Below are positions 5,349 through 52,807 of a DNA stretch of 64,000 bases, piece after piece (the first letter of the stretch is position 1; every line of letters begins with the position of its first letter). The stretch is from Prevotella sp. (lineage in GTDB: Bacteria > Bacteroidota > Bacteroidia > Bacteroidales > Bacteroidaceae). The notes beneath the pieces were generated by a model. That model ran no database searches and had not been told where the DNA came from. It was given only the letters and a program-made list of their open reading frames with translations. Made by a program: the position numbers and the translations under genes. The DNA lies in NCBI GenBank assembly GCA_017623155.1, contig JAGAPR010000098.1:6601-70600 (forward strand), given 5' to 3'.

Positions 5349-6716
5349 TTATTTATTATTTTCGGCTTTTCCGGGTACGTTTTCGGGTACTTCTCCGGAA
5401 GGAGCCACGCCGAAGGAATTAAAGCGCTCCATGTTTTCGACCTTCGACTCGTCCACGATTTTTATATAAGGCTTCATAGCCTTAAAATCGCTGTGCCCAG
5501 TCCAGGACATAACAACGGCCGGAGGGATCCCCAGGCGAAGCGCATTAACTACGAAGGTACGGCGGCCGGCGTGAGTAGTCAAGACTTCATATTTAGGCAC
5601 CACCCGCTCCTGGCGCATATTGCCGGCGTAGGCGACAATATTAACCGGCTCGTCGATACCGGCCGCTTCGGCGGCGTCATGTAGGTGCTCGTTCATTTTC
5701 TGATTACTTATTACCGGCAGGGCTTTATCGCCAGGGAAGCCGACCCCCGCGTATTTTTCGAGTATGGCCAGCGCGTATTTATTTAGCTCGATACGTAGCC
5801 GGTCAGTAGTTTTTTTAGTTACGATAGACATATAAGGCGCCTTCGCGTCCAGATGGATATCCGACCGCCGGAGCTTCGCCGCGTCAGAGTAGCGAAGGCC
5901 GGTAAAGCAGCAGAAGCAAAACACATCACGAACCTGGCCGAAGGAGGGACAGCCCGGCTCAAATTCAAACGTAAGGAAGTGCTGGAGCTCCTCCCACGAA
6001 AGAAATATAACCTCTTTGCAGTCGAGACCCTTAAAACGCGGCCTATAGCTTTCATGAGCCTGGCCGGAGTAGTAACCGTTAGCGGCCGCCCATCGAAGGA
6101 ACCAGCGCAAGAAGGCGACATTTTTAGCCACCGTAGTATTTAATAGCTTCGCCGTATTCTGCAGGTACGACACCCAGCTGGCAAAGTCAGCTTTATCGAA
6201 GTCAGCCAGGGAGACCCCGGCGCGCCACCCTTCTACATGCTTCCGGATCGCCTTAAACTTTGTAAACGTCGCCGGCGTCCAGTTATTAGTAATACCCATC
6301 TCGGCCGTAAATTTGTCGAAGACCTGGAAGAAGCCAGGAGCCGCCGGCGCTTCTTCGGCCGGCTTCGCCTTCGCCCTTCCTTCGGCTTCATCAAAAAGCG
6401 CCTTAAATTCGGCGACCGTAGGAGCCGCGCCGGCGTGATCGAGCTCGAAGCGCGTTAATACTTCTTCCACCGTCGAGGCCTGCCGAGTAAGCGCCCGGTT
6501 AATTTCGCCGGCCGTCTGCCGATAGCTATTTTTAGCGCCGAGCCGGACGCAGGAGTTAGCGGCGTCCCATTTGCCCGGGGCGATAACATAGCCAGAGCGC
6601 AAATCGCACCGGCGCCCAGCCCAGGAGACCCGGAGCCGGATGCCTACCTCGTCGGCAACTTCCTGGCCGGCGTTATTCGGCTTTACGTGCAGACCTATTT
6701 TAATAGAGAACTTCAT
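5349..6716 (-). CDS. Tyrosine integrase of prophage 2
   Basis: TGLRYSD, HAGRRTF, WTGH...MKPY catalytic motifs; N-terminal arm-binding-like region. Confidence 0.93.
   Translation of the reverse strand: MKFSIKIGLHVKPNNAGQEVADEVGIRLRVSWAGRRCDLRSGYVIAPGKWDAANSCVRLGAKNSYRQTAGEINRALTRQASTVEEVLTRFELDHAGAAPTVAEFKALFDEAEGRAKAKPAEEAPAAPGFFQVFDKFTAEMGITNNWTPATFTKFKAIRKHVEGWRAGVSLADFDKADFASWVSYLQNTAKLLNTTVAKNVAFLRWFLRWAAANGYYSGQAHESYRPRFKGLDCKEVIFLSWEELQHFLTFEFEPGCPSFGQVRDVFCFCCFTGLRYSDAAKLRRSDIHLDAKAPYMSIVTKKTTDRLRIELNKYALAILEKYAGVGFPGDKALPVISNQKMNEHLHDAAEAAGIDEPVNIVAYAGNMRQERVVPKYEVLTTHAGRRTFVVNALRLGIPPAVVMSWTGHSDFKAMKPYIKIVDESKVENMERFNSFGVAPSGEVPENVPGKAENNK
5372..5392. promoter_or_regulatory. Putative integrase arm-type sites (left arm)
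   Basis: CGGGTACGT (5372) and CGGGTACTT (5384), 12-bp period; same pair at 52742/52754. Confidence 0.6.
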
Positions 6717-11300: not shown

Positions 11301-13337
11301 ATGAGACAACTGATTATTAACCGCCTCGCCCTTTACAACTTCAAGGGCATACGCCAGGCCGAAGCTCGCTTTAGCGATACCGGCGCCACCATAACCGGCG
11401 ACAACGGCGTAGGCAAGTCAACGATGGCCGACGCCTTCTCCTGGCTTTTCTTCGGAAAGAACGCCGCCGGAGTCGAGCAATTCAGTATTAAAACCGTCGA
11501 CGAGGCCGGCAACTTCATACCGCACCTCGACCACACCGTAGAAGCCGACTTTACCCTGGTAGACCACGAGACCGGCGAAGTCAGCCAGACCCGCGCGCGC
11601 CGAACCTACGCCGAGGACTGGAAGAACGCCGCCGGCGATACCGACCAAAAGCTGGCCGGCCACCATACCGACTACTTCTGGAACGATATCCCGGTAAAAA
11701 AATCGGAGTACGACGCCAAAGTAGCCGAGACGATACCGGCCGACATCTTCAACGTAATAACGGACGCCTACGCCTTCCTGGCGCTCCCCTGGGACGTCCA
11801 GCGCAACAAGCTGACCGAGATAACCGGCGAAGTCAGCGCCGCCGATATCGCCGCTGCTAATCCCGACTACGCCGCCCTTCTTCAGCGCGCGAAGGGAGCG
11901 ACCCTGGAGCAGTACTGCACCAGCCTGGGCGCCCAGCGCAAGAGGATAGCCGCCGAGCTCGACGCGATACCCACCCGCAAGGACGAGCTCCAGCGCGCCA
12001 CCCCCATAACCCCCGACTACGCCGCCCTGGAGATCCGCAAGGCCGAGCTCGAAAAGACGATAGCAGAACTCGACGCCGCGGCCGGAAGCATAGCCGAGCG
12101 AAACCGCCTACAATACCAGAAGGCCGCCGAGATACAGAGCCAGATCAACGAGCAGGAGAAGCTCCAACAGCAGGCAATCCACGCCGCCGAGATGTCGAGG
12201 CAGGATGCCAACCACCGCGCCCGCAAGAGCCACGACGAAGCCGCCGCCCGCGTCAGCGAGATAAAAGAGCGCATCGCCCAGAACGACCGCGGCCGCATGG
12301 CGCTGGAAGGCTTAAGAAGGGACGCCGAAAAGATAGGAGCCGAGGCCGACCGGAAGGACACCGAGCTCGTAGCCTTCCGCGAGCGCTTCAGCCAGCTATA
12401 TAACCAGACCTACACCCCCGGCTCGTTAGTCTGCCCCCGATACGGCCACCAGTGCACCGACCCGACAGCCTGCTCGAAGGGCGAGGCCGAATTTAACGAC
12501 GGCCAAGTAGCCACCCTCACCCGCTGGCAGGAAGAAGGCCGCGCGAAGGCCGCCGAAGTCAAGCGCCTACGCCAAGAGGCCGCCGACATGTTAAAGACCT
12601 ACGACGCCGGGATCGCCGAGAACGACGCCAAGAAGGGCGCCCTCGAGACCGAACTGAGCCAAGCCCAGAACCTTCTGGCGAACCTTCCGGCCGTCGCCCT
12701 TCTTCCGGAGATTAACCCGGCCGACCTTCCGAGCTGGCAGGAGGCCGCCACCAAAATAGCCGAGCTTCGCCAGCAATACCAGGCCGCCCTCCAGCCGTCG
12801 ACCGGAGACAGCACACCGGCCACCCACCCGGACGCCAAGCGCCACGCCCAGATGGAGCTCGACGAAGTAAAGCGCAAGTTAGGCCTCCGCACGATTATAG
12901 AAGCCAACGAGCGCCGCCAGAAGGAGCTCGACAACCAGGCCGCCAAGTTAGCCCAGGAGAAGGCCGACATCGAGCGAGAGCTGAGCCTGGCCGAATCCTT
13001 AACTATTGCCATAATGGACGCCGTAGAGCAGCGCGTTAACGCCCACTTCGCCCTCGTCCAGTTTAAGATGTTCAAGACCCTGGTAAACGGCAACAAGCAG
13101 CCCGCCTGCATAGCCACCGTTAACGGCGTCGCCTATAAGGACGTCAACACCGCCGGCCAGATCAACGCCGGGCTCGACGTGATACAGACGTTAACTCGCT
13201 TCTACCAGTTTGCCGCGCCTATTTTCGTAGACAACTGCGAAAGTGTAGCCGAGCTCAAGACCCCGGACGGCGCCCAAGTTATACGCCTTCAATTTGTCAA
13301 GGGGATGCCCTTAACCATAACCCCGGACGAAGCATGA
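11301..13337 (+). CDS. SbcC/Rad50-like coiled-coil ATPase
   Basis: LYNFKG, Walker A GDNGVGKS, long coiled coil, NTAGQ signature, IFVDN Walker B. Confidence 0.85.
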   Translation: MRQLIINRLALYNFKGIRQAEARFSDTGATITGDNGVGKSTMADAFSWLFFGKNAAGVEQFSIKTVDEAGNFIPHLDHTVEADFTLVDHETGEVSQTRARRTYAEDWKNAAGDTDQKLAGHHTDYFWNDIPVKKSEYDAKVAETIPADIFNVITDAYAFLALPWDVQRNKLTEITGEVSAADIAAANPDYAALLQRAKGATLEQYCTSLGAQRKRIAAELDAIPTRKDELQRATPITPDYAALEIRKAELEKTIAELDAAAGSIAERNRLQYQKAAEIQSQINEQEKLQQQAIHAAEMSRQDANHRARKSHDEAAARVSEIKERIAQNDRGRMALEGLRRDAEKIGAEADRKDTELVAFRERFSQLYNQTYTPGSLVCPRYGHQCTDPTACSKGEAEFNDGQVATLTRWQEEGRAKAAEVKRLRQEAADMLKTYDAGIAENDAKKGALETELSQAQNLLANLPAVALLPEINPADLPSWQEAATKIAELRQQYQAALQPSTGDSTPATHPDAKRHAQMELDEVKRKLGLRTIIEANERRQKELDNQAAKLAQEKADIERELSLAESLTIAIMDAVEQRVNAHFALVQFKMFKTLVNGNKQPACIATVNGVAYKDVNTAGQINAGLDVIQTLTRFYQFAAPIFVDNCESVAELKTPDGAQVIRLQFVKGMPLTITPDEA

Positions 13338-13528
13338 TTTACGAAGTATATATAACCGAGACGCTCTGCCGAACCGAACAGATCGAGGCCGACAGCAAAG
13401 CCGAGGCGATAGCCAAAGCCCGCGAGGCCTACGACAAGGAAGAAATAGTATTAGACTACAAAGACTTCATCGAAGTAGACTTTAAGGCCGTCGCAGACGG
13501 CGACGAAGCCAGCGACGACGAAGACTGA
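13334..13528 (+). CDS. DpnD/PcfM-like small protein
   Basis: YEVYITETL...IEADSKAEAI...Y..EEIVLD..DF. Confidence 0.6.
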   Translation: MIYEVYITETLCRTEQIEADSKAEAIAKAREAYDKEEIVLDYKDFIEVDFKAVADGDEASDDED

Positions 13529-13627
13529 CCCAGGGAGGCCGGAGAGAGCTCCGGCGCCCTTCGCCGGGAGGCGAGAACCCCTCTATTTAAGTGTAAGGCC
13601 GGCGTAATTGCAAGCCGCCGGCTGTTT

Positions 13628-13715
13628 GCCCGAGTAGCTCAGACAGCGAGAGCGCGCCGGAAGTCGCAAGAGCGACCAGCACGGCGGAGGGCTGGTGCAA
13701 GTCCAGCCTCGGGCA
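13628..13715 (+). ncRNA. tRNA-like RNA with anticodon loop replaced by a 22-nt hairpin-bearing insert
   Basis: Acceptor GCCCGAG/CTCGGGC, D stem GCTC/GAGC, stem CGCCG/CGGCG, T arm GCTGG-TGCAAGT-CCAGC. Confidence 0.65.
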
Positions 13716-13764
13716 CAAAGTTTTAGTTAACCCAATTATTAACCCCTTCTAAACCCACAGCTAT

Positions 13765-14196
13765 ATGGAACAGAAGACCAACCCCAGCGGCGAGCAGGCC
13801 GCAACCCAGGCACCCCAGCCAACAGCCTGGATCGAGAGAGTAAGAGCACTGGCCGACGAACTCGGCAACGAGCTCGACAACCGCAAATCCGGAGAAGAAG
13901 ACCGCCGCGGCTTCATTCTCGTAGCCGTAGACGGCACCAACGCCAACGACGGCAAGCCAGTAGTATCAATGGGAGCCACCGCCGGCCACAGCATAGCCCT
14001 CGGCATGGCAGTTAAACACGTGCTGACCGGCGAACCATTTGCCAAGCACATGCAAACCGCCGCCAAGATGATGGCTATAGACACCCTCGCCGGAGACGGC
14101 AAAGGCACCGTAGTAATCGACCTCCGCGACAACGAAGGCGACGACGGCCAGGCCGACGACCAGGAGCAGACCCAGGAAGAAGCCGATGGAGAGTAA
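13765..14196 (+). CDS. Hypothetical acidic protein
   Basis: Packed ORF; N-terminal layout (W...ALADE...LDN...ILVAV) shared with next ORF. Confidence 0.7.
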   Translation: MEQKTNPSGEQAATQAPQPTAWIERVRALADELGNELDNRKSGEEDRRGFILVAVDGTNANDGKPVVSMGATAGHSIALGMAVKHVLTGEPFAKHMQTAAKMMAIDTLAGDGKGTVVIDLRDNEGDDGQADDQEQTQEEADGE

Positions 14197-14509
14197 CAAC
14201 AGACCAGACTGGATGGCAGCCCTGGCCGACGAAGTAGAAGCCGCCCTGGATAATTCCGGGATAGACACCGACCCCCGCGCCGCCGTGATATTTATCGCAG
14301 TCCACCCGAACCCCGACGGATCTAAGCACGTCGTACACGAAATTAGAGGCGGGAACGCACCCCTGGCCGAAGCCATAGGCGCCCTGGTTTATAACCGCGA
14401 CCTCCCCGCCATACTTCACCTCGCAGCCGCCGCGGCGCTTCAAATGAGGCACCTGGAGAACCGAGCAGCCAACAAGAACCATAAACCCCACAACAAAAAA
14501 CGCAAATGA
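14186..14509 (+). CDS. Hypothetical protein, possible paralogue of 13765..14196
   Basis: WMAALADEVEAALDN..VIFIAV. Confidence 0.65.
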   Translation: MESNNRPDWMAALADEVEAALDNSGIDTDPRAAVIFIAVHPNPDGSKHVVHEIRGGNAPLAEAIGALVYNRDLPAILHLAAAAALQMRHLENRAANKNHKPHNKKRK

Positions 14510-15350: not shown

Positions 15351-16118
15351 ATGGAATTAACGGTAATTGCATCTTCATCAGAGGGGAACGCCTACGTAAT
15401 TCAGAACGAAGGCGAAGCCCTTCTGATTGAAGCCGGCGCCAACTTCAGCAAGACCCTCGAGGCGCTCGGGCATAACGTAGCCAAAGTTAACGGCTGCCTT
15501 ATTACCCACGAGCACGGAGACCATGCCGGACACGTTAACGAAGTCCTTAGCTACGGCCTCCCGGTCTACGCCAGCAGGGGAACCTGCAACGCTATAGAGA
15601 ACAAAATCCGTAGCGCCTACAAGCCCCGCGTTTTAGACTTCGATAGCGTAGGCAACTACTTCGACCTTCAGTTAGGCCGCTTCGAGGTTTACCCCTTCGC
15701 CGCCAAGCACGACGCCGCCGAGCCTTTAGCCTTCTACATCTGGCACCCGGAGACCGGCGGGATCCTATTTGCTACCGATACTTACTACATCCGGCCGACC
15801 TTCGCCGACCTTCGGACAGTGATGATCGAATGCAACTACGCCGCCGACATTTTAGCGGCCAACGTCGAAAAGAGCGCCAACGGCATGACCTGGCAGCGCG
15901 CCCAGCGAGTACGAGCCAGCCACCTAAGCCTCGACACCTGCCTGGCCGCGTTGAAGGCCAACGACCTAAGCCACGTAAATAACGTAGTGCTTATCCACGT
16001 CAGCGCCGGCAACGGCGACGCGCGCCGCTTCAAGAAGGCCGTAGAGCAGGCAACCGGCAAGCCGACCCACATCGCCCGCCCAGGGCTTAAAATAGACTTA
16101 AATATTAACCCCTTCTAA
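15351..16118 (+). CDS. MBL-fold metallo-hydrolase (phage exonuclease-type)
   Basis: SSSEGN, THEHGDH, HD, ATDT, IECNY, SHLS. Confidence 0.9.
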   Translation: MELTVIASSSEGNAYVIQNEGEALLIEAGANFSKTLEALGHNVAKVNGCLITHEHGDHAGHVNEVLSYGLPVYASRGTCNAIENKIRSAYKPRVLDFDSVGNYFDLQLGRFEVYPFAAKHDAAEPLAFYIWHPETGGILFATDTYYIRPTFADLRTVMIECNYAADILAANVEKSANGMTWQRAQRVRASHLSLDTCLAALKANDLSHVNNVVLIHVSAGNGDARRFKKAVEQATGKPTHIARPGLKIDLNINPF

Positions 16119-47460: not shown

Positions 47461-48810
47461 ATGGGACTTATTATCGCCGCGGGCAACACTAAGCCCGTTT
47501 TCCCCTACGATTATTACTATGGCGTCAAGATTAACCTCGCCGTAGCAGACCCGACAGTAGAGCGAGTAGGGCGCCCCGAACTTCATACGAGCCTGCCAAT
47601 CCAGAGCCGCATGCGCCGCTGTATTCTTAAAGATAACGGCGACGTAAACTATTACCTGCACCCGACCGACAGCACCAAGAAGGACACCGGAGCCGCAGCC
47701 AAGCTAGACGGCACCGATGGCATGTATATGGTAGAGCTTCCGGATCACTACGCAAAATTTGAGTTTGATGGCAACAACTACAGCTCGCTAATTAGCGAGT
47801 ATCCGCTGCCCGGCTTCCACAAGGTACGAAAGTGCTACCGTAGCGCCGTCGAGGCCACCATCGACCGAACCGTAGCAGCCACCCCGAAGCTGGCCGCAGT
47901 CTGCAACACTACGGCCAGCTTCAGAGGCGGCAATAACAACGCCGCCTGGGACGGTACCTATAGGAGCCTTCTCGGCCTTCCGGCTACCGTCACGTCGTTA
48001 ACCAACTTCCGAGCCTACGCCCGCAACCGAGGCGCCGCAGGGCTTAACGGCGCCGGCTGGAACTGCGACCTCTACGAAGCCCAGCGAACCACCTACTGGC
48101 TCTTTGTCATCGAATACGCCACCCGCAACTGCCAGGCCGAATTTAACCCCCAGCCGGACGCAAACGGCTACAAGCAGGGAGGCCTCAGCGCCGGCGTCAC
48201 TACGCTCGCTGCGGCTAAGTGGAACACCCTAAACGGCTACTATCCCTTTATCCCCTGCGGCACAACCAACAGCCTGGGCAACGCTACCGGCGTCGTCGAG
48301 TTTACCATGCCCGACGAATACGACCCCGGCGTTACTACCGTCGTCAAGGTACCCAGCTACCGCGGCATAGAAAACCCCTTCGGCCACATTTGGAGCTGGA
48401 CGGACGGCTGCCTCTGCCTAATTCAGAGCAACGAGGCCGGCGGCCGCTCTATCTTCTACACCTGCGACGACCCGGCGCTCTTTGGAAGCGCCGCCGCAGA
48501 CCTGGCCAACTACCAGGAGCGAGGCGACCTCCCCAGGGTAGAAGGCTACGTTAAGACGATGATGGTAGGAGAATACGGCGAGAACATGCCGACCGCCGTA
48601 GGAGCCGGCGCGAGCGCTAATGCCCACTTCTGCGACTACTTCTATACCAACATACCAGCCACCGGCGAAGCTCTTAGGGGCGTGCTCTTTGGCGGGTCTG
48701 CGAATCACGGCACGGGTGCCGGCCTCGCGTCTGCGGCTTCGGATCGCGCCCCCTCGCTTACGACTGCGTACTTCGGCTCCCGGCTTTGCTTTATCCCCGA
48801 AGCAGCGTAA
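47461..48810 (+). CDS. DGR target: tail fibre/adhesin with C-terminal CLec (FGE-like) domain
   Basis: GIENPFGHIWSWTDG; C-terminal FGG...GSRLCF encoded by the VR. Confidence 0.88.
   Translation: MGLIIAAGNTKPVFPYDYYYGVKINLAVADPTVERVGRPELHTSLPIQSRMRRCILKDNGDVNYYLHPTDSTKKDTGAAAKLDGTDGMYMVELPDHYAKFEFDGNNYSSLISEYPLPGFHKVRKCYRSAVEATIDRTVAATPKLAAVCNTTASFRGGNNNAAWDGTYRSLLGLPATVTSLTNFRAYARNRGAAGLNGAGWNCDLYEAQRTTYWLFVIEYATRNCQAEFNPQPDANGYKQGGLSAGVTTLAAAKWNTLNGYYPFIPCGTTNSLGNATGVVEFTMPDEYDPGVTTVVKVPSYRGIENPFGHIWSWTDGCLCLIQSNEAGGRSIFYTCDDPALFGSAAADLANYQERGDLPRVEGYVKTMMVGEYGENMPTAVGAGASANAHFCDYFYTNIPATGEALRGVLFGGSANHGTGAGLASAASDRAPSLTTAYFGSRLCFIPEAA
48677..48790 (+). repeat. DGR variable repeat (VR)
   Basis: 114-nt ungapped match to TR; 21 mismatches, all opposite TR adenines. 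Confidence 0.96.
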
Positions 48811-48831
48811 ACCGCGCCGCCACGATTAACG

Positions 48832-48863
48832 CCTCGGGCGCCCCCGATTTAAGGCGCCCGAGG
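48832..48863. promoter_or_regulatory. Hairpin/cruciform downstream of VR
   Basis: CCTCGGGCGCC-(10 nt)-GGCGCCCGAGG. Confidence 0.7.
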
Positions 48864-48898
48864 TCAATCCAAACCAAACCACCTCAATAATACCGAAG

Positions 48899-49234
48899 AT
48901 GAACAACAAACAAGACGACGGCTCGCTGGCCTTCCTCAACATAGCACCCGACGAGGCTAACAAGCACTTCAACTGCCCGGAGACGACCCAGCAACAGCTC
49001 ATTAACCGGAGCTTCTGGCTGTGCGACTACATAAAGGGACAGCGGACAAAATACGGCGAAGACCGCTACATCGTCCTGGTTAAATTCAACAAGGACGACA
49101 AGATGGCCGACGCCCGCAAATTCTTCACTAATTCAAGAGATATAAAATATGTGCTCGACCAGATAAAACAGCGGAACGCCTTCCCGCGACACGTAACGAT
49201 GCGCGCCAGCGGAACCCGCTACTATTTGGAGTAG
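48899..49234 (+). CDS. DGR accessory-position protein (not Avd-like)
   Basis: 111 aa between VR and TR; mixed beta/alpha pattern. Confidence 0.65.
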   Translation: MNNKQDDGSLAFLNIAPDEANKHFNCPETTQQQLINRSFWLCDYIKGQRTKYGEDRYIVLVKFNKDDKMADARKFFTNSRDIKYVLDQIKQRNAFPRHVTMRASGTRYYLE

Positions 49235-49260
49235 CGCCACGATATACGGCTGTTAGCCCC

Positions 49261-49374
49261 GGGGCGTGCTCTTTGGCGGGAATGCGAATAACGGCACGAA
49301 TGCCGGCCTCGCGAATGCGAATACGAATAACGCCCCCTCGAATACGAATGCGAACATCGGCTCCCGGAATTACT
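49261..49374 (+). repeat. DGR template repeat (TR)
   Basis: 29 adenines; 12 AAY codons in target frame. Confidence 0.96.
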
Positions 49375-49529
49375 GATCAGCCAGGCCGGCCAGCTACCGA
49401 CCCGGCAACAAAATACAACCCAAAGGGCTAAGGCCATACCGATAACAAGGTAAAAAATATTTACCCATTCAAAGGCGGCATAGTAGGCACCAGCCGAACC
49501 GCCGCTGGGAATCAGCAAAGCAAAAGACA

Positions 49530-50579
49530 GTGAAAAGACACGGCAACCTCTTCGACCAGGTTATTAGCTTAGATAACCTTCGAGCTGCGGACGAGACCGC
49601 CCGCAAAGGTAAGCTGCGCACCTACGGCGTCAAGGTACACGACAAACACCGGGAGGAACACATCCAGACGCTACACGAGCAATTAAAGGCAGGAACCTAC
49701 AAGCCCTCGCCCTATACGACCGTTATAATACACGAGCCGAAGGAGCGCGTAATATTTCGCCTTCCGTACTATCCCGACCGCATAGTACACCACGCTATTA
49801 TGAACGTCGTAGCCCCAATCTGGCGGGGACTTTTCGACCGCGATACCTACTGCGGACTCCCCGGCCGAGGGATCCAGGCAGCCGCCGACCGCGTTAAATA
49901 CTTCCTTCGGAACCAGCCGGAAGACTGCCGCTATTGCCTTAAAATTGACATACGCAAATTTTATCCCAGCATCGACCACGACGTATTAAAGAAGCTGGTA
50001 CGATGGAAGATTAAAGACCGGCGCGTAATTGCCTTAATAGACGACCTTATAGACAGCGCCGACGGCATACCCATCGGCAACCACCCCTCTATCTTCTTCG
50101 CCCTTCTTTACTTCGCCAGGTTTATAATGTGGCTTCGCCAGGACTGGGCGAAGGAGCACGGCGTTAAACTGATTATGATAGACTACGCCGACGACTTAGT
50201 ATTTTTTGCGTCAGATAAGAAGATTTTACGCCGGCTTCTGGCCGACATGGAGGACTATCTGGCCAGAGAGCTAAAGCTGGAGATAAAAGCCAATAAGCAA
50301 ATTTTTCCAGTAGCCAGGACGCACCGCGATAAACACGGCCGCGGCGTCGACTTCCTCGGCTACGTATTCTACCTGGAGGGAACACGGCTCCGCAAAGGTA
50401 TAAAAAAGAACTTCGCCAGGGCTATAGGCAACATGCGCAGAGCCAAGAAGCCCATCAGCGAAGCCGACTTTTTACAGCGCTGCGCCTCCTGGTGGGGCTG
50501 GTGCAAACATAGTGATAGTAAACATTTAATCGAGAAACTAAACAAAACCTCACCGTATGAAATCAAATTCAAACGATAG
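49530..50579 (+). CDS. DGR reverse transcriptase
   Basis: GTG start; KER, DRIVHH, KIDIRKFYPSI, GIPIGN, YADD, DFLGY. Confidence 0.95.
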   Translation: MKRHGNLFDQVISLDNLRAADETARKGKLRTYGVKVHDKHREEHIQTLHEQLKAGTYKPSPYTTVIIHEPKERVIFRLPYYPDRIVHHAIMNVVAPIWRGLFDRDTYCGLPGRGIQAAADRVKYFLRNQPEDCRYCLKIDIRKFYPSIDHDVLKKLVRWKIKDRRVIALIDDLIDSADGIPIGNHPSIFFALLYFARFIMWLRQDWAKEHGVKLIMIDYADDLVFFASDKKILRRLLADMEDYLARELKLEIKANKQIFPVARTHRDKHGRGVDFLGYVFYLEGTRLRKGIKKNFARAIGNMRRAKKPISEADFLQRCASWWGWCKHSDSKHLIEKLNKTSPYEIKFKR

Positions 50580-52794: not shown

Positions 52795-52807
52795 GCGGAG
52801 AGAGAGG
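52795..52807. repeat. att core, tRNA-proximal copy
   Basis: GCGGAGAGAGAGG. Confidence 0.85.

What the first reader, a model, noticed from the sequence alone, without database searches (positions are those of the whole stretch)
13628..13715. tRNA-shaped RNA whose anticodon loop is replaced by an extra hairpin
Seen: perfect acceptor (7 bp), D (4 bp), anticodon (5 bp) and T (5 bp) stems with canonical T8-A9 spacing. The 7-nt anticodon loop is replaced by 22 nt, GAA-GTCGC-AAGA-GCGAC-CAGCA. The D loop lacks GG and the T loop is TGCAAGT. Inference: intact pairing argues for selection on shape, not decoding. It could be a tRNA mimic (decoy for tRNA-targeting defences), an RNase P/Z processing signal in the early transcript, or an intron-like tRNA.
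Basis: partly seen in the sequence, partly recalled or inferred. Interest (0 to 1): 0.65.

Follow-up and report, generated by a model that had tools for sequence, protein, structure and literature searches.

The report
Anticodon-less tRNA look-alike in gut prophage
A gut-bacterium prophage carries a conserved gene for an RNA that keeps the body and end signals of a transfer RNA but has a capped hairpin where the anticodon should be, so it cannot read codons and is probably cut out by the host's tRNA enzymes as a tRNA mimic with an unknown target.

Summary
Bases 13628-13715 fold as a cloverleaf with a hairpin in place of the anticodon loop (z -3.85); ARAGORN and the Rfam tRNA model miss it. It is the 3' module of a 236-nt non-coding cassette in the early operon of a Bacteroidales prophage. 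Twelve orthologous loci keep it at 92-100% identity while synonymous sites nearby fall as low as 55%, with compensatory changes in the extra hairpin and T stem. A sister phage keeps the cassette and the scaffold but has a different, GNRA-capped arm. The odd D and T loops are a matched A18/G55 elbow swap, not decay. All copies carry C74, as do 49 of 51 host tRNA genes. This points to a discrete, CCA-matured, non-decoding tRNA mimic cut out by host enzymes. Intron, twister-sister, YrlA and C4-type antisense readings failed their tests. Expression and target are not shown; a decoy role is inference. The family is narrow (one phage clade). The architecture is common in phage contigs, and this scan has noted anticodon-less tRNA look-alikes and the A18/G55 swap many times on other DNA.

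The parts
13628..13715 (+). tRNA-like RNA: acceptor, D and T arms intact; A18/G55 elbow; anticodon loop replaced by an internal loop and a capped hairpin; A73
13660..13681 (+). 22-nt insert in place of the anticodon loop (GAA strand, 5-bp hairpin with AAGA loop, CAGCA strand)
   Evidence: U-A to C-G compensatory change in 3 of 13 sequences; at most 1 of the 12 unpaired bases differs in any orthologue
13716..13718 (+). 3' trailer: C74 invariant, CCA not encoded here (encoded in 4 of 12 orthologues)
   Evidence: 49 of 51 host tRNA genes also have C74
13597..13623 (+). hairpin H3: 8-bp G+C stem with an 11-nt loop holding the palindrome UUGCAA; ends 4 nt before the tRNA-like 5' end
   Evidence: stem changed compensatorily and loop identical in L003; loop shortened in L002
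13560..13575 (+). hairpin H2: 6 bp with a GNRA tetraloop, inside a 22-nt block that is identical in the distant L003
13538..13555 (+). hairpin H1, variable in sequence, just after the upstream stop codon
13719..13764 (+). A/U-rich leader with two TTAACCC motifs ahead of the next start codon
11301..13337 (+). upstream SbcC-like AAA ATPase gene (context; marker used for the tree)
   Evidence: phrog_77, E 6.6e-49
13334..13528 (+). 64-aa DpnD/PcfM-like ORF, absent in some cassette carriers
13765..14196 (+). downstream 143-aa ORF of unknown function, fast-evolving (46-74% identity in most orthologues)

Best explanation
A phage-encoded, non-decoding tRNA mimic released from the early-operon transcript. 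Step 1 (inferred): there is no promoter of its own, so it is transcribed with the rightward early operon. Step 2 (computed fold plus covariation): it folds with a tRNA acceptor/T/D body and an A18-G55, G19-C56 elbow. Step 3 (inferred from end signatures and textbook tRNA processing): host RNase P cuts at 13628, leaving hairpin H3 at the 3' end of the upstream message, and the host's tRNA 3' pathway trims to C74 and completes CCA, giving an RNA of about 91 nt. Step 4 (shown by sequence): it has no U33/anticodon/R37 loop and no long variable arm, and its discriminator varies between A and G, so it does not decode and is probably uncharged. Step 5 (inference, least certain): it acts in trans by occupying a host protein that reads the tRNA acceptor end or elbow, for example a tRNA-modifying defence toxin, while its sealed arm offers anticodon nucleases no loop to cut.
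For: Conservation 81-88 of 88 nt against 55-88% at four-fold sites of most flanking genes in the divergent relatives (binomial P 1e-4 to 5e-9). 99.2% of cells paired, with compensatory changes in the extra hairpin and the T stem. L003 shows two compensatory acceptor pairs and one D-stem pair across about 1.2 substitutions per site of SbcC. D-loop AG tracks T-loop G55 across 331 tRNA-shaped genes (U55: GG 283, AG 4; G55: GG 4, AG 36), including ordinary-length tRNAs. C74 is present in the window, all 12 orthologues and L003 while positions 73 and 75 vary; host tRNA genes have C74 in 49 of 51. A 3'-end signature matters only if the RNA itself is matured. The host has type A RNase P RNA. Unpaired arm bases are also conserved, which RNase P cutting alone would not require.
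Against: No expression or end-mapping evidence: RNA-library contigs cover the whole region evenly and may be DNA. No target protein was identified. In the 237-nt context the acceptor stem pairs with probability only 0.33 because of a competing pairing with H2. L003 changes the arm and has a non-canonical T loop, so neither is universally required. More distant phages with the same operon have no cassette. The orthologues are close kin, so covariation rests on a few events.
Confidence: 0.45

Rival explanations
1. Cis-acting punctuation: the tRNA fold is only a cutting signal that splits the early transcript between the SbcC-like gene and the downstream recombination/replication genes. H3 protects the upstream 3' end, and the released RNA is a by-product.
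For: It sits inside an operon with no promoter found. H3 ends 4 nt before G1. L003 keeps the scaffold but swaps the arm. Only the acceptor and T/D body are shared by both types.
Against: Invariant C74 and conserved unpaired arm bases are not needed for a cut in cis. Related phages run the same operon without it.
Confidence: 0.27
2. The functional unit is the whole H2-H3-tRNA-like RNA of about 160-190 nt, acting as a riboregulator or protein-binding leader (attenuation, antitermination, or loop-loop docking of the H3 UUGCA with the T-loop UGCAA) that controls the downstream genes.
For: The 22-nt H2 block and the H3 loop are identical in L003, better kept than the tRNA body. An 11-bp alternative pairing between H2 and the arm/variable region exists. 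The H3 loop and the T loop are complementary over 5 nt (direct reading).
Against: The alternative pairing is broken in L293 and L003 and shows no covariation. L002 has lost the H3 loop palindrome. No terminator on the + strand.
Confidence: 0.18
3. An intron-containing or otherwise spliced tRNA that becomes a decoder.
For: The 22-nt insert equals 7 + 15 nt, and tRNA-Tyr genes with canonical introns occur among viral contigs.
Against: No 15-nt excision gives U33 or a Y32-U33/R37 loop in five sequences tested, and the would-be anticodon varies. There is no bulge-helix-bulge motif, and no splicing endonuclease was found in the 84%-complete host.
Confidence: 0.02
4. A twister-sister ribozyme or a relic of one.
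For: Best Rfam match: 19.4 bits, E 0.089, sharing the GCAAG motif and the GGUGCAAG hairpin; it is the only place in the genome at E <= 10.
Against: Gathering score is 34. P2 does not pair and the GCUNA cleavage strand (PMC5660989) is missing downstream. A permuted fold costs 24 kcal/mol against the cloverleaf. Homologous changes keep the hairpin and break the ribozyme motifs. The control rings in 8 of 14 genomes.
Confidence: 0.03
5. A neutral, decaying tRNA pseudogene.
For: Narrow distribution; it fails the tRNA finders.
Against: Strong purifying selection and compensatory changes; one clade, vertically kept.
Confidence: 0.05

Closest known systems
Canonical class I tRNA (Rfam RF00005), including phage tRNA-Thr genes with the same first 15 nt
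   Same: Acceptor, D and T stems, U8/A14, G19-C56, U54/A58, 5' and 3' flank signatures; many phage tRNA-Thr genes start with the same 15 nt.
   Different: No 7-nt anticodon loop; A18/G55 elbow; G15 faces G48; not found by ARAGORN or Rfam.
Phage T4 species 1 and 2 stable RNAs (rnaC, rnaD)
   Same: Phage-encoded stable non-decoding RNAs in a tRNA cluster (annotation); rnaC has a terminal T arm. Processing by tRNA enzymes is recalled from memory.
   Different: 139 and 119 nt, with long inserts and no comparable four-arm cloverleaf in the predicted folds; the RNA here is not in a tRNA cluster.
YrlA / bacterial Y RNAs (RF02553; PMC4201824)
   Same: tRNA-like domain recognised by RNase P, CCA-adding and modifying enzymes; found in phages; has a 5' structured module ahead of the tRNA-like part.
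   Different: No Ro60/TROVE gene nearby or found in the genome; no YrlA hit at this locus.
C4 antisense RNA of phages P1/P7 (RF01695)
   Same: Cloverleaf RNA cut by RNase P from an early-operon transcript (from memory; the paper was not obtainable).
   Different: No model hit; no complementary target above chance in the prophage; a true tRNA body is kept.
Twister-sister ribozyme (RF02681; PMC5660989)
   Same: GCAAG motif and a hairpin with a UGCAAGU loop.
   Different: Catalytic core not formed; 19.4 bits against a cut-off of 34.
mascRNA / tRNA punctuation elements (from memory)
   Same: tRNA-like fold inside a longer transcript, next to a protective upstream structure.
   Different: Eukaryotic or organellar; mascRNA is a shortened fold, whereas this one has an extended arm.

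Membership tests
decoding tRNA (RF00005) | acceptor 7 bp, D stem, T stem 5 bp with a 7-nt loop | tested here: met
decoding tRNA (RF00005) | 7-nt anticodon loop with U33 and purine 37 | tested here: not met
   22-nt insert with a sealed hairpin
decoding tRNA (RF00005) | elbow G18-U55 and G19-C56 | tested here: not met
   A18/G55 variant with G19-C56 kept; the same variant occurs in ordinary-length phage tRNAs
decoding tRNA (RF00005) | 5' and 3' maturation, CCA addition, aminoacylation | not testable with these tools
   only flank signatures could be checked; RNA contigs uninformative
intron-containing tRNA | excision restores a canonical anticodon loop | tested here: not met
intron-containing tRNA | bulge-helix-bulge or self-splicing intron, and a splicing enzyme | tested here: not met
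   15-nt surplus without a BHB motif; PF01974 not found in the 84%-complete host
YrlA Y RNA | encoded next to Ro60/Rsr and matching RF02553 | tested here: not met
C4/CI antisense RNA | RF01695 match and complementary targets in the same operon | tested here: not met
twister-sister ribozyme | L1 internal loop (GCAAG opposite GCUNA) between P1 and P2, plus SL4 | tested here: not met
   SL4-like hairpin present; P2 and the cleavage strand absent
twister-sister ribozyme | self-cleavage | not testable with these tools
   needs an in vitro assay
T4 species 1/2 stable RNAs | sequence or fold homology, and location in a tRNA cluster | tested here: not met
   no match in annotated phages; different folds
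T4 species 1/2 stable RNAs | accumulates as a stable processed RNA | not testable with these tools

The most novel reading that the evidence does not exclude
The RNA is a dedicated anti-defence decoy: a CCA-ended, uncharged, anticodon-sealed tRNA mimic with a rewired elbow that soaks up toxins acting on tRNA acceptor ends. It would then be one member of a large, undescribed class of phage counter-defence RNAs whose arm is swapped between lineages.
Probability: 0.12. Interest if true: 0.8.

Novelty: new variant of a known kind. Interest (0 to 1): 0.46.

Why it matters
Phage tRNA-shaped genes without anticodons are missed or mislabelled by tRNA finders, yet this one is under strong purifying selection and keeps the host's tRNA end signature. 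If the RNA is made and acts in trans, it is an RNA-only counter-defence or regulator aimed at tRNA-binding host proteins. If it acts in cis, it shows tRNA punctuation in a phage early operon. The set of natural variants (two arm types, and cassette-free sister phages) makes either reading testable. The family itself is small, and similar RNAs recur widely, which lowers the surprise of this one copy.

Tried and rejected
ARAGORN, default and relaxed with introns: no sensible call. Rfam over 20 kb and on six orthologous loci: nothing at threshold. Twister-sister, linear and permuted: rejected. Intron excision: rejected. YrlA and C4: rejected. Antisense targets in the prophage: at chance level. 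Own promoter or terminator: none on the + strand with the sigma-70 scan, and no TAnnTTTG in the cassette. Expression: four RNA-library contig sets cover the region evenly, may be DNA and cannot show ends. Wider homologues: none in 60 relatives by DNA, none in 150 family genomes by covariance model (the one hit is an ordinary tRNA-Asn), none in 400 family and 400 order genomes by pattern except one unrelated A18/G55 tRNA-like gene, and none in annotated phages. The Apyc1 hit on the downstream metallo-hydrolase is below cut-off (25.8 against 50 bits). The downstream 143-aa protein has no family. Literature searches found no description of this RNA type; the library lacks most subscription papers. 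Host genus could not be named.

Full report
Observation. The sequence at 13628-13715 parses exactly as reported. Its minimum-energy and centroid structures are the cloverleaf with an extra hairpin (-43.2 kcal/mol, z -3.85, no shuffle as stable). A looser cloverleaf descriptor hit 24 times in 751 shuffled 64-kb strands, and in the real window it hit only this element and the host tRNA-Ser. ARAGORN and Rfam do not report it as a tRNA.

Context. It lies in a prophage of about 47 kb that runs from an integrase at 5349-6716 to a tRNA-Ser at 52795, with terminase, portal, head, tape measure, reverse transcriptase and endolysin genes. Related phage loci sit in Bacteroidales genomes. The element is in a 236-nt gap of the rightward early operon, after an SbcC-like ATPase and a small DpnD/PcfM-like ORF, and before a fast-evolving 143-aa ORF, a 276-aa ORF and a metallo-hydrolase. 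The gap also holds three hairpins: a variable H1, H2 with a GNRA loop, and H3 with an 11-nt loop, which ends 4 nt before the tRNA-like 5' end. No promoter was found in the gap.

Homologues. Searches through the flanking proteins gave 12 orthologous loci of the same type. They keep 81-88 of 88 nt, while four-fold synonymous sites in flanking genes of the divergent relatives are mostly 55-88% identical and the next protein is 46-74% identical. The excess conservation is significant per pair (P 1e-4 to 5e-9) and extends to unpaired bases. On the named structure 99.2% of cells pair, with a U-A to C-G change in the extra hairpin (3 sequences) and a G-C to C-G change in the T stem (1 sequence). One anticodon-stem pair is broken in 3 sequences. 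These are few independent events. The sister phage L003 has an identical 22-nt H2 block, the same H3 loop on a compensatorily changed stem, and a tRNA-like body with two compensatory acceptor pairs and one D-stem pair. Its arm is shorter and capped by a GNRA loop, and its T loop is non-canonical. A second copy of that type changes GCAA to GCGA, keeping GNRA. On an SbcC tree the 11 cassette carriers form one clade (100/100), and more distant phages with the same operon have no cassette. So the homologues are not ordinary tRNAs and this copy is not a private degenerate.

The elbow. These belong together: A18-G19 faces G55-C56. Among 331 tRNA-shaped genes in the fetched loci, U55 goes with GG in 283 and with AG in 4, while G55 goes with AG in 36 and with GG in 4. 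The set was selected by my patterns and the rows are not independent. Eight ordinary-length genes with A18/G55 are included. All 51 parsed host tRNAs have U55. I derived this before looking it up; the scan has noted the same swap in 21 other findings.

End signatures. The base before G1 is U or A, and position 74 is C in every copy while 73 (A/G) and 75 (A/U/C) vary; CCA is encoded in 4 of 12 orthologues. Host tRNA genes show the same pattern: C74 in 49 of 51, CCA in only 7. The host encodes type A RNase P RNA. From established tRNA biology I infer 5' cleavage by RNase P and 3' trimming with CCA completion. The varying discriminator, the absence of G3-U70 and of a long variable arm, and the sealed anticodon make charging unlikely (inference from known identity rules).

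Rejected readings. No 15-nt excision restores U33 or a constant anticodon, and no splicing endonuclease was found. The weak twister-sister match (19.4 bits, cut-off 34) reflects a shared hairpin; P2 and the conserved cleavage strand described in PMC5660989 are not formed, and a permuted fold is 24 kcal/mol worse. There is no Ro60 gene or YrlA match (PMC4201824), and no C4 match or antisense target above chance.

Mechanism. Best reading (0.45): a discrete, non-decoding tRNA mimic cut from the early transcript that acts in trans on a protein reading the acceptor end or elbow. Anti-phage toxins that pyrophosphorylate tRNAs exist (CapRel, PMC9712102) and would be one fitting target, but nothing here links them to this RNA. 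Rivals are cis punctuation of the operon (0.27) and a larger H2-H3-tRNA riboregulator (0.18). In the full 237-nt context the acceptor stem competes with an H2 pairing (probability 0.33), though that pairing is not conserved. RNA-library contigs cover the region evenly and cannot show a discrete RNA, so expression is not shown.

Novelty. The family is narrow: it was not found in 400 family or 400 order genomes, nor in annotated phages. The architecture is not rare. Two pattern scans of viral contigs returned 94 distinct long-arm tRNA-shaped genes besides intron-type tRNA-Tyr; some are class II-like tRNAs, and many have a hairpin-capped arm. A related phage, L044, has another one next to a tRNA-Ser in its early operon. 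I found no paper describing the type, within a library that lacks most subscription journals. The nearest precedents are T4 species 1 and 2 RNAs, YrlA and C4. The scan's own notes list many similar RNAs on other DNA. Verdict: a real, selected, uncatalogued tRNA-like RNA; new variant of a known kind; interest 0.46.

Noticed in passing
window 13765-14196: This ORF is hypervariable: 46-54% identical in phages whose SbcC is 95-97% identical. It has no family; the nearest named Atlas cluster is DUF2482 at a weak score. The next ORF (14186-14509) looks like a distant paralogue by eye. A candidate arms-race gene.
   Followed up: partly
window 10936-48143: The heptamer TTAACCC occurs 22 times on the + strand of the prophage, often just upstream of start codons, against 118 times in the whole genome; probably a phage translation-initiation or leader motif.
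   Followed up: partly
window 13605-13615 and 13696-13702: The H3 loop holds the palindrome UUGCAA, which is complementary to the T-loop UGCAA; a kissing-loop contact or dimer is possible. It is lost in L002.
   Followed up: partly
L044:780-1740: A related phage has a long structured non-coding region in its early operon, ending in a tRNA-Ser-like gene and a tRNA-shaped gene whose anticodon loop is a GAAA-capped mini-hairpin.
   Followed up: partly
L413:1300-1890: A genome of the same genus has a cluster of odd tRNA-like genes, including an A18/G55 gene with an irregular anticodon arm.
   Followed up: partly
L173, L265, L271, L343, L347, L349, L364, L373, L402: Many unrelated phage contigs carry tRNA bodies with long structured inserts in place of the anticodon loop.
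   Followed up: partly
window 13691-13707: The T arm resembles the SL4 hairpin of twister-sister ribozymes, and the D-stem GCUCA resembles their cleavage strand; a distant link between such ribozymes and tRNA-like RNAs is conceivable but untested.
   Followed up: partly
window 15351-16118: Metallo-beta-lactamase-fold hydrolase with a below-cut-off Apyc1 (anti-Pycsar) hit; probably the usual recombination-module hydrolase.
   Followed up: partly
window 47461-50579: Reverse transcriptase gene in the tail region, which matches the diversity-generating retroelement noted earlier by the scan.
   Followed up: no
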